Shown: one piece after another, positions 58,020-64,000 of the stretch | How the letters are laid out: the number at the start of each line of letters is the position of its first letter | Position numbering within the stretch: the stretch's first letter is position 1 | Virus genome (UHGV): UHGV-0117634 | Strand: one strand, 5' to 3' | Origin: a virus | Length of the DNA: 64,000 nt | Made by a program: the position numbers and the translations under genes | The notes under the pieces: model-generated | What the model saw: the letters and a program-made list of their open reading frames with translations, nothing else | What the model was told of the DNA's origin: nothing | Databases searched by the model: none

Positions 58020-59600
58020 TTTACGAAATTTATATTTTTATAAAATTTGGGATTCACTCCGTTCATCTTGGGTCACCATGATATGTGATAAAATATCTAT
58101 ACCCTTCTAAACACCCTCTCTAAGCATCATCTCTATATAGTATTATATAGTATCTATATAGCCTCTTAGTCCCTAAATAGTGCTCTCTATATAACCCTCT
58201 ATAAAGCCTTCTAAGCCTACCATTAATCAACCCTATACAATCACCTTCCTAGCCTCTTCCTAGCCCCTATAGCCATCTTAATCTCTAGGTTATCTGTGTT
58301 ACTTAACAGTAACCCATTAGGTAAACGATAGTACCCTATATAGCAGAATCACTAGGTATTACTAAGCCTCTATATAGACTGTTATATAACACTAAACAGG
58401 TATTCCCTGTAAAGGCTTATCCTACAAGGTCTAACACGGTACTAACAAGGTATCTTATAAGCCTGTTAATTCCTGTTTTATATAAGATAGTGTATAGATA
58501 GCTATTCAGTTCTATAAAATTTTTATAAAATAGACTAGGTAGGCCACTTTTTAGGTTCTTGGGAGTATCTGAAAAATATCTACAAAGGCTGTATATCTGC
58601 TTGGTAGCCCTTAACAGCCCTGTAACATCCCCTTTGCAAAATCTTAAAATATCATTAACAATCCCTTAACAACTCTCTCAAGCTCTTAACATCTCTTCAG
58701 AGTTCTTAACAGTTTCTTAACAGGACTAGCAAGGGCTTAACAAGTCTGTAATATTGCTTACAAGAGTCTAACAAGTTGCTTATAAGTTGCTAAATAGTTA
58801 AATCTTAAGAGTTATTTTGTTAAGATAATTAACAAGATGCTAACAAGTTCTAAATCTTTTTAACAAGCTATTAACATGGTCACTATCTCTTGGTCTATAG
58901 TTCCCTATCCCTCTTAGTGACTCTTTATAAAGCCCTCTATAAAGCTCTGTATAGCTCTGTATAGCCTCTTCTAAGCTTCTCCCTAGTAACTACACCCCAA
59001 ATACCTGTATAGCTCTTTATAGGGCTTTCTAGGGGCTTATACAGGGACTTCAAAGTGTCTAACAAGCTTTTAACATACCTCTAACAAGGATTTAACAAGG
59101 GGCTAACAAGTCTCTAATAAGCATAACTATGTTGCATTTGTTAAGATTTTGTTAAGAGAATGTAAAGGGGGCTAACTTTTACGTAACTTTATAGCCTCTT
59201 TTACGTAACTTTGAAGTAACTTCATAGCCCCTATAACATGTTTTTTAGTGACTATCAAGCCCTTTTTAGATATTCACAAGATACTAACGAGATGATAAAG
59301 CTTACACCCTTATAAGATTCTTTTAAGGCTCTAGGAAGCTCTATAGAGGGCTTTTAAGAGTGGGTTAATATGATTGGTTAAGTTGAGTTGATAAGCCGTT
59401 ATAGAGCGTTATAGAGCGTTTAAGGGATTGCCCTTCCCTTTCGGGTTATGGGCTTATATTTAAGGGATTGGTAACAATACCAATTAGTTGATTTGATAAG
59501 AGGTTATAGAGTAATCTATAGAGTTATTGCTCTAAATGTCTGGTAAGAGTCTAGAAAGGGATTGTATGAGGATTCGATAGAGTCCTATCTTATAGACGTT
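58020..59600. repeat. 1.6 kb non-coding region of short degenerate direct repeats with a strand-skew switch
   Basis: No ORF of 60 aa or more; repeat families CTATA(A/T)AG, CTTAACA, TAACAAG, CTTCTAAG; tandem CTCTGTATAG x2 and CGTTATAGAG x2; plus strand is G-depleted up to about 59300, then G-rich with inverted motifs. Confidence 0.6.
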
Positions 59601-61370: not shown

Positions 61371-61432
61371 TTTTAGATTCTCCAGTTTAGGATTGTTGGG
61401 GCTTGCTTGCCCCGTTGATAAGTACTTTACTT
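61371..61432 (-). promoter_or_regulatory. Conserved upstream cassette 4
   Basis: Core plus hairpin GGGGCTTGCTTGCCCC plus GTACTTT element. Confidence 0.4.
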
Positions 61433-61452
61433 GTTTTGATTTTCAGTGTCAA

Positions 61453-61683
61453 TCATTTTTCTATGATTATTTCATATTGACCATCGACACTATCAAAATA
61501 AATTCCGTCATCATCTTCTGATTTGAAGTAACATTGTATATCATCGCTTTTTGGGTAGTCAAGCCTTGCAATTTGGCAAGCCTCTATAGCATTTTCTTTA
61601 CTTCCTGTAAACTCTTCAAGTCCTTTGAAGTCCCATTCAGTACCATTTGACAAGGAAAGAATAAGATAGATTGTTGTAAGCAT
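61453..61683 (-). CDS. hypothetical small protein (early array)
   Basis: ORF track, 76 aa; AGAGG SD; different upstream element. Confidence 0.45.
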   Translation of the reverse strand: MLTTIYLILSLSNGTEWDFKGLEEFTGSKENAIEACQIARLDYPKSDDIQCYFKSEDDDGIYFDSVDGQYEIIIEK

Positions 61684-61701
61684 GTTTTAAGCCTCTTGTA
61701 A

Positions 61702-61722
61702 GCCCCTGTGCGGGGCTTTTTT
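61702..61722 (+). terminator. Plus-strand-oriented hairpin plus T-run inside the minus-strand array (antisense terminator?)
   Basis: GCCCC-TGTGC-GGGGC followed by TTTTTT on the plus strand. Confidence 0.35.
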
Positions 61723-61746: not shown

Positions 61747-62304
61747 TTATGCTTCAAAGTCGCTTAGATTGCTTTCTACGACGTTGGATTGCATAGTCTC
61801 GAAAATGTCACAATAAACATTATTCATTTCATCGCTACGTTGTACCATTGCTGCAATGTTGCGTAATTCATCCGGTACATACCCAAGGTTACGATTTTGT
61901 AAAGATGGTACAAAAAACGGGGCATACATAGCATTGAATTCAGTTGTGTAAAGCTTTTTAATCCAAGATTTATCAAAGTGTTCTGTAAAACTTGCTACGT
62001 CGCTCATATTCTCACAACTCCAGTCATCTTGTAAATCTTCGTCTGGAATGTCAAGCTCTAAGATAACGATATTCTGTGATTTCATTTGAAACGCTGCTGT
62101 AATACTTGCGCTATCCAGAGCATTTTTTATACCCTCATCAGTGATTTGTTCTGCGTCCATATCTTCTACATCATAGAACTTGCTAACAGGGTAAACATAA
62201 AAACACCCATCACTATCAGAGCAATTCCAAGCCCCTGAAGGTTTTTCTCCACCACTTAGCAGGTTTGCAAAGTTTTCTTGAGTAGTTCCGTGAAAGCATT
62301 TCAT
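61747..62304 (-). CDS. hypothetical protein (early array)
   Basis: ORF track, 185 aa. Confidence 0.5.
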   Translation of the reverse strand: MKCFHGTTQENFANLLSGGEKPSGAWNCSDSDGCFYVYPVSKFYDVEDMDAEQITDEGIKNALDSASITAAFQMKSQNIVILELDIPDEDLQDDWSCENMSDVASFTEHFDKSWIKKLYTTEFNAMYAPFFVPSLQNRNLGYVPDELRNIAAMVQRSDEMNNVYCDIFETMQSNVVESNLSDFEA

Positions 62305-62365
62305 TTTAGAATCTCCAGTTTAGGATTGTTGGGGCTTGCTTGCCCCGTTGATGAGTACTTTAATA
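62305..62365 (-). promoter_or_regulatory. Conserved upstream cassette 5
   Basis: Core plus hairpin GGGGCTTGCTTGCCCC plus GAGTACTTT. Confidence 0.4.
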
Positions 62366-62387
62366 TATCTAAAATCAGTGTCAAACG

Positions 62388-62406
62388 TTTTTTTTTTTTT
62401 TTTTTT
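62388..62406. repeat. Homopolymeric T19 tract (A19 on the coding strand) overlapping the stop of 62405..62806
   Basis: 19 consecutive T directly visible. Confidence 0.8.
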
Positions 62407-62806
62407 AAAGTTCTGCGTAAATTGTGTCACAGATATCTTCAAAATCTTGTTTAGACAAATTACGTTGTAACCATGTAGCAAAGAAATCAGCAATTGCAAA
62501 ATTAGCGTCGAAATCTACAGATAGCCACACTTTAACAGCAAATCGAAACATTTTCAAGTCTAATTCCTTATTAAGGACTTTTGACTTTGCCAGCATTTCA
62601 GCCATTTCATATTGTGCGCCGTCAAGTGTAGCACCATTTGCAACGTTTGCAAGAGAATTTTTGATGTTTTCAACGTCTAAAATTACACCTTGAATTTTAC
62701 CAATAATATTATGCAGTGTCTCATCAGGTGCAGTTGATGTGATAGAGTTAATACGGTTTACGGTCAAGCGTGCTTTCAGAATTGCGATATCTTTATTTGT
62801 AGCCAT
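62405..62806 (-). CDS. hypothetical protein (early array)
   Basis: ORF track, 133 aa. Confidence 0.5.
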   Translation of the reverse strand: MATNKDIAILKARLTVNRINSITSTAPDETLHNIIGKIQGVILDVENIKNSLANVANGATLDGAQYEMAEMLAKSKVLNKELDLKMFRFAVKVWLSVDFDANFAIADFFATWLQRNLSKQDFEDICDTIYAEL

Positions 62807-62892
62807 TTTTGAATCTCCAGTTTAGGTTAGTGATAAAGTTCTTTATCTGGGGCTTATCTTATCGAACTATAAACCCCATGTAAAGTACTTTG
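62807..62892 (-). promoter_or_regulatory. Conserved upstream cassette 6 (long variant) with perfect palindrome AAAGTACTTT
   Basis: Variant B: AGTGATAAA...CTGGGGCT...AACCCC plus GTAAAGTACTTTG. Confidence 0.4.
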
Positions 62893-63165
62893 TTAAGCAA
62901 GATGTAACTTTTTACCGTTAACAATAATGTAACTTACTCCACTATTACTGTAAACATCTTGATAAATTCTGCGTAACTTGCCTAAATATCGAACTTTCCA
63001 AGATGTAGGAATTTTCTTCCCGTATCCGGTAGCGGTTTTCTGTAAACCTGCTACTTGCCAATCTAATAAATGTTGCTCCGCTTGCAAGTCTTCAAAGTTT
63101 AATACACCGTCTACATAGTGCTTTAAAATTACGTTTAAAGTGCGGCCATTGTTAGTTGCAAACAT
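62893..63165 (-). CDS. hypothetical small protein (early array)
   Basis: ORF track, 90 aa. Confidence 0.45.
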   Translation of the reverse strand: MFATNNGRTLNVILKHYVDGVLNFEDLQAEQHLLDWQVAGLQKTATGYGKKIPTSWKVRYLGKLRRIYQDVYSNSGVSYIIVNGKKLHLA

Positions 63166-63260
63166 CTTTGAATCTCCAGTTTAGGATTGTTGGGGCTTGC
63201 TTGCCCCGTTGATGAGTACTTTACTTATTTTGGTTTGGTCTTGCAAGTACTTTTTAAAAC
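63166..63260 (-). promoter_or_regulatory. Conserved upstream cassette 7 with candidate promoter TTGCAA-N17-TAAAGT
   Basis: Read on minus strand; both promoter hexamers overlap AGTACT palindromes. Confidence 0.4.
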
Positions 63261-63584
63261 TTATTTTCGTTTGCTTATTTCTTGAACGATAACAGGATAA
63301 TAATCTTTTAAATCAGTGACTTGTAAAGCTTCTAATAACGCATTGTAACTATTAATAAGTTGATAATCACCGTTTAAAATGTCTTGTATCTTGTACATGT
63401 TTACACTGTATCGAAAACTCATCTCTAAACGTTCCAACTGACTAGCGTCTAAACGCTCTAGGAAGCCCGTTACAAGATTATTTTTAACCTGTAGTGTAGT
63501 TGCATCACTTGCCAGCTTATGCGCCTGATAAGCCTTATAGAGTGCGACAATTGAAATCAGAATTGCAATGCCAGATAGTAACAT
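63261..63584 (-). CDS. hypothetical membrane protein (early array)
   Basis: 107 aa; N-terminal hydrophobic helix; start 4 nt after upstream stop with AAGGAAAG SD. Confidence 0.45.
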   Translation of the reverse strand: MLLSGIAILISIVALYKAYQAHKLASDATTLQVKNNLVTGFLERLDASQLERLEMSFRYSVNMYKIQDILNGDYQLINSYNALLEALQVTDLKDYYPVIVQEISKRK

Positions 63585-63876: not shown

Positions 63877-63965
63877 TTTAGATTCTCCAGTTTAGGATTG
63901 TTTAGTGATAAATCTCTTTATCTGGGGCTATCTTATCAGCCTGATAACCCCATGTAAAGTACTTT
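63877..63965 (-). promoter_or_regulatory. Conserved upstream cassette 8 (long variant) with perfect palindrome AAAGTACTTT
   Basis: Near-identical to cassette 6. Confidence 0.4.
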
Positions 63966-64000
63966 ATTAGTTAATTTCAAAGATTGTTACATAGCCATCA

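What the first reader, a model, noticed from the sequence alone, without database searches (positions are those of the whole stretch)
62388..62406. T19 homopolymer directly after a stop codon
A 19-nt homopolymer overlapping the stop of 62405..62806 is unusual and prone to replication or transcription slippage. It could act as a phase-variable element, a slippery site extending the protein, or a spacer affecting the downstream cassette.
Basis: seen in the sequence. Interest (0 to 1): 0.4.

Follow-up and report, generated by a model that had tools for sequence, protein, structure and literature searches.

The report
Hypervariable poly-A tract before phage promoter
The 19-base run is real and its length varies (12–19 bases) among otherwise identical gut phage genomes, but it sits after the stop codon and just upstream of an early-gene promoter, so it cannot alter any protein and most likely only adjusts how strongly the next gene is transcribed.

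Summary
The T19 at 62388–62406 is confirmed. It is the only homopolymer longer than 7 in 64 kb (about 1e-5 expected). The genes here are on the minus strand, so it reads as A19, and its first two A's belong to the TAA stop of a 133-aa ORF.

The window is a Felix O1-like myovirus (Ounavirinae, Mooglevirus, 92% to Citrobacter phage HP1). Three bases after the tract comes TTGACA-16 nt-TAAAGT, then a GGGG…CCCC hairpin, an SD and an ATG. This is a repeated, PeSL-like early-promoter cassette that drives a 185-aa gene.

Across 64 distinct cassettes, an A5–6 run centred near -43 is a conserved, UP-element-like feature. At this junction, 21 genomes that are at least 7% diverged all carry A6. One gut-metagenome clade (at most 1.5% diverged, 16 independent assemblies plus the window) carries A12–A19. 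Sequences with zero flanking substitutions still show 12, 15, 17, 18 and 19.

So this is a genuine hypermutable microsatellite, expanded from the promoter's own upstream A-tract. No observed or modelled length changes the stop codon or fuses reading frames. The likely effect is graded tuning of promoter strength; a neutral slippage runaway is the main rival. The function is untested. This is a new phage instance of a known kind of promoter-proximal repeat, of moderate interest.

The parts
62388..62406 (-). Poly(dA·dT) tract: A19 in the sense of the genes, T19 on the plus strand. With the transcription start inferred 7 nt after the -10 hexamer, it spans about -38 to -56 of the downstream promoter.
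   Evidence: sequence; only run >7 in the window. (A12-A19 in 16 independent near-identical assemblies plus the window; A6 in 21 more distant genomes). (position relative to the promoter).
62405..62806 (-). Upstream ORF of 133 aa (phrog_4327, unknown function; Felix O1 p41/orf20 homologue). Its TAA stop at 62405-62407 contributes the first two A's of the tract.
   Evidence: (Silverhawkium gp117 note).
62379..62384 (-). -35 hexamer TTGACA of the cassette promoter, 3 nt (CGT) downstream of the tract.
   Evidence: 10 of 12 match to the sigma-70 consensus. (conserved in all orthologous junctions). (annotated as a promoter in phage AYO145A).
62363..62378 (-). 16-nt promoter spacer CTGATTTTAGATATAT. 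Relatives and the A12-15 sub-lineage have 17 nt (T5 instead of T4).
62357..62362 (-). -10 hexamer TAAAGT.
62331..62346 (-). GGGGCAAGCAAGCCCC hairpin. It starts exactly 10 nt after the -10, so about 3 nt from the inferred 5' end of the mRNA.
   Evidence: MFE -13.9 kcal/mol, z -2.3. (same position in 50 of 58 distinct cassettes, with different stem sequences).
62302..62324 (-). Conserved CCTAAACTGGAG(N8)ATG block: Shine-Dalgarno GGAG at 62313-62316 and the start codon of the downstream gene at 62302-62304.
   Evidence: family D1, 8 copies.
61747..62304 (-). Downstream gene driven by this cassette: 185 aa, phrog_3303, unknown function, with a weak to moderate ADP-ribosyltransferase-like fold.
61373..61472 (-). 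Paralogous copy of the same 100-nt cassette (A5-TGA-TTGACA-17 nt-TAAAGT-hairpin-SD) in front of the 113-aa gene.
   Evidence: family D2.
63167..63266 (-). Paralogous copy of the cassette (A5-GTAC-TTGCAA-17 nt-TAAAGT-hairpin-SD) in front of the 90-aa gene.
   Evidence: family D2.

Best explanation
The run is a hypermutable poly(dA·dT) microsatellite. It arose in one recent lineage of a Felix O1-like (Mooglevirus) gut phage by expansion of the short A6 tract that normally sits just upstream of the -35 hexamer of a repeated early-promoter cassette (A-tract, TTGACA, 16-17 nt, TAAAGT, 5' hairpin, SD, ATG).

Once past the slippage threshold, the tract changes length by slipped-strand mispairing during replication. 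It now ranges from 12 to 19 among genomes that are otherwise identical. It has no coding consequence.

It occupies the positions read by the two alpha-CTDs of host RNA polymerase (proximal subsite about -43, distal about -53). Its most likely effect is therefore quantitative: longer tracts fill more of the UP-element region and change, probably raise, initiation at the promoter of the downstream 185-aa early gene.

Shown: the tract is real; its position relative to the stop codon and the promoter motifs; the A-tract is a conserved part of the cassette; a single-clade origin; length hypervariability; no frame effect.

Inferred: the promoter is active and early; the transcription start site; contact with alpha-CTD; any effect of length on expression.
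For: 1. Position. The sense strand reads ...CTT TAA A17 CGT TTGACA-16 nt-TAAAGT-ACTCATCAAC-GGGGCAAGCAAGCCCC-...CTGGAG-N8-ATG.
2. The promoter element is conserved at this junction across Ounavirinae (28 relatives) and recurs before many small ORFs (75 distinct cassettes). The GenBank record of AYO145A annotates it as a promoter. Felix O1 ORFs 20-22, which flank the orthologous '39-bp repeat', peak at 5 min after infection (PMC3185647).
3. In 64 distinct unexpanded cassettes, A frequency is 0.72-0.97 at -45 to -41 and 0.47-0.67 at -55 to -50. 78% have A>=5 within 16 nt of the -35, against 2.3% for background. This matches alpha-CTD subsites centred near -43 and -53 and their preference for A/T-tracts (PMC3326320).
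4. Threshold behaviour. 21 genomes that are >=29/399 nt diverged in the upstream gene all have A6. The clade with 0-6/399 differences has A12 (x4), 13 (x2), 14, 15 (x4), 17, 18 and 19 (x4). Sequences with 0/399 differences show 12, 15, 17, 18 and 19. Window, L030, L039 and L042 are identical over 420 + 1402 nt of flanks yet carry A19, A18, A19 and A19; L041, with one flank mismatch, has A17.
5. Tract class co-segregates with a linked 1-nt spacer polymorphism (16 nt with A17-19, 17 nt with A12-15), so the differences are heritable rather than sequencing noise.
6. There is an independent expansion (A11) at the same junction in a Felixounavirus contig (L024).
7. The A/T-triplet count in the proximal plus distal subsites, the best UP-strength predictor in PMC3326320, rises from 4 (A6) to 9-12 (A12-15) to 14-15 (A17-19).
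8. T- or A-tracts adjacent to -35 elements are experimentally shown to tune promoter output in H. pylori (PMC4081817).
Against: - No expression data exist for this phage or any Felix O1-like phage promoter. The transcription start, promoter activity and alpha-CTD contact are all inferred.
- Upstream A-tracts can stimulate or inhibit depending on the rate-limiting step (Ellinger 1994, as cited), so the direction of any effect is uncertain.
- Persistence of the long tract next to flanks that are 5-10% diverged downstream does not require selection. Recombination at the cassette just downstream would carry the tract along with the upstream gene.
- Differences of +/-1 between assemblies could be technical. 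For example, A12 versus A13 came from two assemblies of one biosample, and the second contig ends 3 nt after the tract.
- The gene being controlled has no established function.
Confidence: 0.55

Rival explanations
1. Neutral slippage runaway. The anatomy and mutational mechanism are the same, but the length has no measurable effect on transcription or fitness. The tract is simply a microsatellite that crossed the instability threshold in a spot that tolerates insertions (after a stop codon, before a promoter) and now drifts.
For: The tract sits in the only few bases of this intergenic gap that carry no conserved motif. Lengths are spread broadly over 12-19 with no single favoured value. The expansion is confined to one young clade with <=1.5% divergence, and all other lineages do well with A6, or with A1 in Moogle- and Suspvirus-type genomes. 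No functional data exist.
Against: The position coincides exactly with a conserved A-rich zone of the cassette at the alpha-CTD subsites, where tract length is known to matter in other systems. No member of the clade has reverted to fewer than 12. The longest tracts co-occur with a sub-optimal 16-nt spacer, which could be compensatory.
Confidence: 0.33
2. RNA-level element. Read-through transcripts from the upstream cassettes carry an internal A12-19. This could bind Hfq or ribosomal protein S1, direct processing or decay, or undergo transcriptional slippage, and so affect stability or translation of the flanking cistrons.
For: No terminator-like site lies between the upstream ORF and the tract, so the tract should be transcribed as part of polycistronic mRNA. 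Runs of 9 or more A/T are known to cause RNA polymerase slippage, and poly(A) is a high-affinity Hfq distal-face ligand (own knowledge).
Against: Slippage would have no coding consequence here. The short ancestral A6 is part of a DNA-level promoter pattern shared by cassettes with unrelated upstream genes. No Rfam family matches the region. Nothing in the data points specifically to an RNA role.
Confidence: 0.06
3. Classical ON/OFF phase-variation switch, or a recoding site. Length changes would switch a gene on and off by altering promoter spacing, extend the 133-aa protein, or fuse it with the next ORF.
For: A homopolymer of this length is certainly slippage-prone, and its length does vary. 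The CTT-TAA context superficially resembles the CUU-UGA +1 shift site of prfB (own knowledge).
Against: The tract lies upstream of the -35, so the -35/-10 spacing is unaffected. TAA is retained for every length, and no frame reaches the downstream ATG. The codon before the stop is not conserved among relatives (CTT, CTC, CTA, ATT) and the stop may be TGA. No SD-like stimulator lies upstream.
Confidence: 0.02
4. Sequencing or assembly artefact, such as a spurious homopolymer or a chimeric join.
For: Long homopolymers are error-prone. Several short contigs end near this locus, and one (L051) ends 3 nt after the tract with a mismatched base.
Against: 16 independent assemblies from different samples and three assembler types all have a long tract at the same position, with perfectly colinear flanks. 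The length class co-segregates with a linked spacer indel. Most contig breaks fall inside the repeated cassette, which is the expected cause.
Confidence: 0.02

Closest known systems
Promoter-proximal T/A-tract 'rheostat' of Helicobacter pylori sabA and other H. pylori genes (PMC4081817)
   Same: It is a homopolymeric T/A tract directly adjacent to the -35 element. Its length varies between closely related genomes by slipped-strand mispairing, over a similar range (T9-T18-plus versus A12-A19). The proposed action is on RNA polymerase alpha-subunit / UP-like contacts rather than on the -35/-10 spacing.
   Different: In sabA the tract acts as a spacer that changes the phasing between the core promoter and separate UP-like A-boxes further upstream. 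Here the sequence upstream of the tract is coding DNA without phased A-boxes, and the tract itself fills the UP positions. That predicts a graded rather than a multiphasic effect. The host is a virulent phage, not a bacterium, and no expression data exist.
UP elements / upstream A-tracts of sigma-70 promoters (Estrem 1998, 1999; Aiyar 1998; summarised in PMC3326320)
   Same: It is an A-tract located at about -38 to -57, with conserved A peaks near -43 and -53 across the cassette family. This fits the alpha-CTD preference for the narrow minor groove of A-tracts.
   Different: The consensus UP element is mixed A/T (NNAAAWWTWTTTTNNAAANNN), not a pure 19-nt A run. Natural UP elements are not length-hypervariable. 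Binding has not been tested here.
PeSL (promoter-early stem-loop) cassettes of T4-type phages (PMC2839356, PMC4122927)
   Same: [quoted passage not shown] It is repeated before small ORFans in a plastic early region. ORFan gain and loss occurs between neighbouring cassettes (HP1_129-like ORF).
   Different: PeSLs were described only in T4-like myoviruses, and a Felix O1-like phage is a different subfamily. The Felix O1 paper listed these elements only as direct repeats. No homopolymer expansion has been reported in PeSLs.
Hypermutable polyG tracts in Campylobacter phages (Sorensen et al. 2021, Cell Rep 35:109214, cited in PMC10877375)
   Same: It is a homopolymer in a lytic phage genome that varies in length within and between populations.
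   Different: Those tracts lie inside coding sequences, including receptor-binding protein genes, and act by frameshifting. This one is intergenic and cannot change any protein.

Membership tests
Simple-sequence-repeat contingency locus (hypermutable homopolymer) | Homopolymer longer than the slippage threshold (about 8-9 or more) | tested here: met
   A19 in the window and A12-19 in the clade.
Simple-sequence-repeat contingency locus (hypermutable homopolymer) | Repeat number differs among otherwise (near-)identical genomes, i.e. it mutates much faster than point substitution | tested here: met
   Lengths 12, 15, 17, 18 and 19 occur among sequences with 0/399 differences in the upstream gene. 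Flanks of 1.8 kb are identical for A18 versus A19. A6 is invariant in 21 diverged genomes.
Simple-sequence-repeat contingency locus (hypermutable homopolymer) | Length heterogeneity within a single population or lysate | tested here: inconclusive
   Two assemblies of biosample SAMEA4527661 give A12 and A13 (L050, L051), but the second contig ends at the tract.
Simple-sequence-repeat contingency locus (hypermutable homopolymer) | Repeat-number change alters expression of a gene with adaptive consequence | not testable with these tools
   Needs reporter or fitness assays.
UP element (alpha-CTD-binding upstream promoter element) | A/T-tract DNA located between about -38 and -59 of a sigma-70 promoter | tested here: met
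   The tract spans -38 to -56 relative to the inferred +1. The promoter matches the consensus at 10 of 12 positions. The transcription start itself is inferred.
UP element (alpha-CTD-binding upstream promoter element) | Conservation of A/T-tracts at the proximal (~-43) and distal (~-53) subsites across the promoter family | tested here: met
   A frequency is 0.72-0.97 at -45 to -41 and 0.47-0.67 at -55 to -50 in 64 cassettes. 78% have A>=5, against 2.3% for background.
UP element (alpha-CTD-binding upstream promoter element) | Stimulation of transcription that depends on the alpha-CTD (R265) | not testable with these tools
   Requires in vitro transcription or reporter assays with alpha mutants.
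H. pylori sabA-type tract rheostat | T/A homopolymer immediately adjacent to the -35 element, variable in length | tested here: met
   The tract ends 3 nt upstream of TTGACA and ranges over A12-19.
H. pylori sabA-type tract rheostat | Separate UP-like phased A-boxes upstream of the tract, whose helical phasing to the core promoter is changed by tract length | tested here: not met
   The 40 nt upstream of the tract are the 3' end of the 133-aa ORF (GACTTTGAAGATATCTGTGACACAATTTACGCAGAACTTT), with no A-run of 4 or more and no phased A-boxes.
H. pylori sabA-type tract rheostat | Multiphasic promoter output as a function of tract length | not testable with these tools
   Needs expression measurements.
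PeSL regulatory cassette (T4-type phages) | [quoted passage not shown] | tested here: met
   compared with the definition in PMC2839356.
PeSL regulatory cassette (T4-type phages) | Many copies flanking small ORFans in a plastic region, with ORF insertion or deletion between neighbouring cassettes | tested here: met
   There are 8 copies in 59.9-63.9 kb. An 80-82-aa ORF is present in HP1 and Silverhawkium and absent in the window and Moogle. The same ORF is present or absent downstream of the identical P0047 protein.
PeSL regulatory cassette (T4-type phages) | Occurs in T4-like myoviruses; promoter and terminator activity shown by reporter assays | tested here: not met
   The host genome is Ounavirinae. 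The 2014 PeSL survey does not mention Felix O1-like phages. Activity is not testable here. So it works like a PeSL, but membership of the described family is not claimed.
Programmed frameshift / transcriptional-slippage recoding site | Slippery run inside the ORF, upstream of the 0-frame stop, giving access to a conserved alternative frame | tested here: not met
   The run begins inside the stop codon. The alternative frames are short, depend on tract length and are not conserved.
Intrinsic terminator (plus-strand T-run) | GC-rich hairpin ending 0-2 nt before the T-run, downstream of a gene on that strand | tested here: not met
   The nearest hairpin (62331-62346) ends 41 nt before the run. 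The terminator scan finds nothing here, and no credible plus-strand gene exists.

The most novel reading that the evidence does not exclude
The tract is a phage-borne contingency locus. Replication slippage would continually generate subpopulations that express different amounts of an early, ADP-ribosyltransferase-like effector (the 185-aa gene). This would let the phage hedge its bets across hosts or host defences.

The tract occupies the site read by RNA polymerase alpha-CTD residue R265, which is the residue that T4 Alt and ModA ADP-ribosylate (own knowledge). If the effector acts in the same way, it could even feed back on its own UP-dependent promoter.
Probability: 0.1. Interest if true: 0.7.

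Novelty: new member of a known kind. Interest (0 to 1): 0.35.

Why it matters
Promoter-proximal homopolymers that tune transcription are established in bacteria with few regulators, such as H. pylori. I found no report of one in a virulent phage, where the known hypermutable tracts sit in coding sequence.

If tract length really sets the output of this early promoter, it would show that lytic phages also use microsatellite 'rheostats' for early-gene dosage. It would also provide a natural allelic series (A6, A11-A19) for testing how a pure A-tract fills the two alpha-CTD subsites.

There are two practical points. The locus is a fast-evolving strain marker for this gut phage lineage. It is also a place where assemblies and variant calls will disagree.

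If the tract is neutral, it is simply a well-documented example of threshold-dependent microsatellite instability in a phage intergenic spacer.

Tried and rejected
- **IMG/VR flank pattern.** An exact-flank gapped pattern in IMG/VR found nothing. The lineage is absent there, so I switched to protein-anchored loci and exact-protein look-ups.
- **JGI metagenomes.** A scan for the expanded junction gave 0 hits.
- **Other long A-runs.** An IMG/VR scan for A>=9 in front of TTGACACTG found only the A11 contig already known, plus two contigs I did not inspect.
- **Frame fusion and +1 or -1 extension.** Modelled for all lengths and rejected.
- **Plus-strand terminator reading of the T-run.** Rejected.
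- **Known RNA family.** None matched.
- **Transcriptome or TSS data for Felix O1-like phages.** None found. Only the RT-PCR timing in PMC3185647 is available.
- **Pfam for all eight neighbouring ORFs.** No significant hits. PHROGs gives only 'unknown function'.
- **Pfam support for an ART domain in the 185-aa protein.** None, even at E<=10. A PDB sequence-profile search also found nothing.
- **Intermediate lengths.** I looked for A7-A11 in proteins 1-13 residues away from the window's and found none: only A12-13 (1 residue away) or A6 (5 or more residues away).

Full report
**Observation**

The plus strand of the window carries 19 consecutive T at 62388-62406. No other homopolymer in the 64-kb window exceeds 7 bases. 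From base composition, only 1.2e-5 T-runs of 19 or more are expected.

All credible ORFs in 59.6-64 kb are on the minus strand. In the sense of the genes the run is therefore A19. The sequence reads ...GAA CTT TAA A17 CGT TTGACA..., so the first two A's complete the TAA stop (62405-62407) of a 133-aa ORF (62405-62806), and the remaining 17 follow it.

**What genome this is**

The region matches Felix O1-like myoviruses (Ounavirinae). The best hit is Citrobacter phage vB_CbrM_HP1 (Mooglevirus, 92%), followed by Moogle (88.7%) and Silverhawkium (84.6%). No isolate in the phage collection belongs to the same close lineage.

**Local anatomy**

Every small minus-strand gene between 59.9 and 63.9 kb is preceded by a repeated cassette (8 copies). 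There are two types.
- The commonest type has a short A-run, 3-4 nt, a -35 hexamer (TTGACA or TTGCAA), a 16-17-nt spacer, TAAAGT, ACWYATCAAC, a GGGG...CCCC hairpin, AACAATCCTAAACTGGAG, about 8 nt, then ATG.
- In the second type (62824-62895 and 63894-63969) the hairpin spans the spacer and the -10.

For the cassette downstream of the tract, the consensus scan gives TTGACA (62379-62384), a 16-nt spacer and TAAAGT (62357-62362), a 10 of 12 match. The hairpin is at 62331-62346 (-13.9 kcal/mol for the leader, z = -2.3). The SD is at 62313-62316 and the ATG of a 185-aa gene is at 62302-62304.

In 58 distinct leaders from relatives, the hairpin starts exactly 10 nt after the -10 in 50 cases, with several different stem sequences. 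Given the usual 7-nt distance from the -10 to +1, this places it about 3 nt from the inferred 5' end of the mRNA. That step is inference.

No Rfam family matches the region. No terminator-like site separates the upstream ORF from the tract.

**What is already published about the cassette**

The same element has been seen before but hardly interpreted.
- The Felix O1 genome paper lists TTGACACTGGTTTTTAGATAGATTAAATTACACATCAAC as a 39-bp direct repeat between genes 18/19 and 20/21 (PMC3185647).
- The wV8 record annotates DR_1 to DR_9 there.
- The AYO145A record annotates a promoter at the orthologous spot.
- Felix O1 ORFs 20, 21 and 22 are maximally expressed 5 min after infection, which is consistent with an early promoter.

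[quoted passage not shown] The shuffling is visible here. HP1 and Silverhawkium carry an extra 80-82-aa ORF with its own cassette between the two genes that flank the tract. The window, Moogle and ESh22 lack it. Assemblies encoding the identical upstream protein P0047 occur both with and without it.

**The A-run is part of the cassette**

I analysed 64 distinct cassettes without an expanded tract, numbering the first base of the -35 hexamer as -35.
- A frequency is 0.72-0.97 at -45 to -41.
- A frequency is 0.47-0.67 at -55 to -50.
- 78% have an A-run of at least 5 within 16 nt of the -35, against 2.3% for random 16-mers of the same strand.

These two peaks coincide with the proximal (~-43) and distal (~-53) binding sites of the RNA polymerase alpha-CTDs, which prefer A/T-tracts because of their narrow minor groove (PMC3326320, citing Estrem 1998, 1999 and Aiyar 1998). 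The short ancestral run is thus best read as an UP-like element.

**Comparative survey of this junction**

In 28 relatives from IMG/VR and GenBank the run after the stop is one of the following:
- A1: the TGA stop overlaps TTGACA (Moogle and Suspvirus types).
- A5 or A6: almost all others (Mooglevirus TAAAAAACGTTTGACA; Felixounavirus TAAAAATTTTGTTGACA).
- A11: one Felixounavirus contig (L024), an independent expansion.

Exact-protein look-ups then found many independent metagenome assemblies of the window's own lineage. At least two of the records are labelled human gut metagenome, and SPAdes, MEGAHIT and Logan assemblers are all represented.

| Group | Divergence in the 399-nt upstream gene | Tract lengths |
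|---|---|---|
| Expanded clade (16 independent assemblies plus the window) | 0-6 differences | A12 x4, A13 x2, A14, A15 x4, A17, A18, A19 x4 |
| More distant genomes (21) | 29-52 differences | A6 in every one |

(Table.)

- Sequences with zero differences in the gene still show lengths 12, 15, 17, 18 and 19.
- Window, L030, L039 and L042 are identical over 420 nt upstream and 1402 nt downstream, yet carry A19, A18, A19 and A19. L041, with one mismatch, has A17.
- Length class co-segregates with a linked 1-nt indel in the promoter spacer: T4 (16 nt) with A17-19, and T5 (17 nt) with A12-15 and with every A6 junction where the spacer was measured. The differences are therefore inherited and are not sequencing noise, although +/-1 differences may be technical.
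- No A7-A11 intermediates were found in this sampling.

This is the classic threshold behaviour of a microsatellite: stable at 6, unstable once it is 12 or longer.

**Coding consequences**

There are none. The T of TAA precedes the run, so every length of 2 or more preserves the stop right after Leu133. For the lengths modelled (6, 12-15, 17-21), the +1 and -1 frames give short, length-dependent peptides that never join the downstream ORF.

The codon before the stop is not conserved (CTT, CTC, CTA or ATT), and the stop may be TGA. A prfB-like +1 site is therefore not supported.

**Likely mechanism**

With +1 placed 7 nt after the -10, the tract spans the following positions.

| Tract | Positions covered | A/T triplets in the two alpha-CTD subsites |
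|---|---|---|
| A6 | -39 to -44 | 4 |
| A12 | -39 to -50 | 9 |
| A15 | -39 to -53 | 12 |
| A19 (window) | -38 to -56 | 15 |

The triplet count is the best predictor of UP strength in PMC3326320. It is 9-12 for A12-15 and 14-15 for A17-19.

The expansion therefore progressively converts the coding-sequence DNA at the distal subsite into A-tract. I infer a graded change, probably an increase, in initiation at the promoter of the 185-aa gene. The caveat is that upstream A-tracts can also inhibit promoters limited at later steps (Ellinger 1994, cited).

The closest experimentally established analogue is the T- or A-tract adjacent to the -35 of H. pylori sabA and other genes, which tunes promoter output like a rheostat (PMC4081817). 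That mechanism relies on phasing between the core promoter and separate upstream A-boxes. No such boxes lie upstream of the tract here, so I do not claim membership of that mechanism, only a resemblance.

**Rival explanations**

The main rival is neutrality. The run may simply have crossed the slippage threshold in a spot that tolerates insertions. Its persistence next to downstream flanks that are 5-10% diverged is explained by recombination at the cassette just downstream. An RNA-level role in read-through transcripts, an ON/OFF switch, a recoding site and an assembly artefact are each much less likely, for the reasons given under the rival explanations.

**The gene under this promoter**

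The 185-aa protein (phrog_3303, no Pfam) has homologues only in Ounavirinae. An AlphaFold model (pLDDT 75, pTM 0.73) gives weak but consistent matches.
- In the PDB, ranks 1-23 are all ADP-ribosyltransferase-fold proteins: DUF952, cholera and pertussis toxins, EcPltA and Rhs ART toxins (E 0.04-0.4).
- In BFVD, the named matches are a phage DarT (E 3e-3), a Tpt1-like protein and an Arr-like protein; the two strongest hits (E 1e-5 and 3e-4) are uncharacterised proteins.

Invariant H5 (FHGT, strand 1), invariant Y36 (strand 2) and nearly invariant E83 (strand 77-85) would fit an H-Y-E triad. This is a lead, not a finding.

**Verdict**

The tract is real, strongly non-random and hypervariable in nature. 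The ideas of variability and of influence on the downstream cassette are supported in outline.

It is a new, phage-borne instance of a known kind of element, a promoter-proximal homopolymeric repeat at UP-element position. Its function is untested. Interest is moderate (0.35).

Noticed in passing
window 61747-62304 (-): The 185-aa early gene downstream of the tract has no Pfam or PHROG function. Its AlphaFold model matches only ADP-ribosyltransferase-fold proteins among the top PDB hits (all weak, E >= 0.04), and a phage DarT at E 3e-3 in BFVD. Invariant H5 (FHGT), invariant Y36 and nearly invariant E83 could form an H-Y-E triad.
   Followed up: partly
window 62305-62404 versus L001 2403-2803, L003 3128-3548, and L056 versus L057: An 80-82-aa ORFan (HP1_129 / Silverhawkium gp116-like) with its own cassette is present between the two genes in HP1, Silverhawkium and several metagenome contigs. 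It is absent in the window, Moogle and ESh22. Assemblies with the identical upstream protein (P0047) occur with and without it. This looks like PeSL-style cassette-mediated gene gain and loss in a Felix O1-like phage.
   Followed up: partly
window 62363-62378 (-): The promoter spacer is 16 nt (T4 run) only in the A17-19 sub-lineage. All A12-15 genomes, and every A6 junction where the spacer was measured, have 17 nt (T5). This is a second slippage-type change in the same promoter, possibly compensatory.
   Followed up: partly
L014 ~1902-1935 and L037 ~545-570: The same promoter shows (TA)n variation in its spacer and -10 region in two other contigs. L014 reads TTGACACTGGTTTTTATATATATATATTAAATT, lengthened compared with the usual ...TTTTTAGATAGATTAAATT. 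L037 reads CTGATTTATATATATATTAAAGT.
   Followed up: no
L024 1890-1906 (IMGVR_UViG_2706796783_000001): There is an independent A11 expansion at the orthologous junction in a Felixounavirus contig, with a TGA stop. It suggests the site is recurrently prone to expansion.
   Followed up: partly
window 62824-62895 and 63894-63969 (-): A second cassette class has a longer hairpin (GGGGTTTATAGTTCGATAAGATAAGCCCC) that spans the promoter spacer and overlaps the -10 (TTTACA-17 nt-TAAGAT). This corresponds to another PeSL subclass.
   Followed up: no
window 58442-59110 (-), within a ~1.2-kb ORF-poor stretch at 58.4-59.65 kb: 10 of the window's 17 CTTGTTAR motifs are clustered here, all on the minus strand, together with other short direct repeats (CTCTATAAC, GCTATACAGAGCT). 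It is a possible iteron, origin or regulator-binding array.
   Followed up: no
window 61700-61718: The intergenic gap before the 76-aa gene (61453-61683) lacks the promoter cassette. Instead it has a GC hairpin (AAGCCCCTGTGCGGGGCTT) followed by a T-run on the plus (antisense) strand, which scores as terminator-like.
   Followed up: no
L043-L045, L036-L038 (short metagenome contigs): Many short contigs of this phage begin or end inside the repeated cassette (GGGGCAAGCAAGCCCCAACAATCCTAAACTGGAG). The cassettes therefore fragment metagenome assemblies of these genomes.
   Followed up: no
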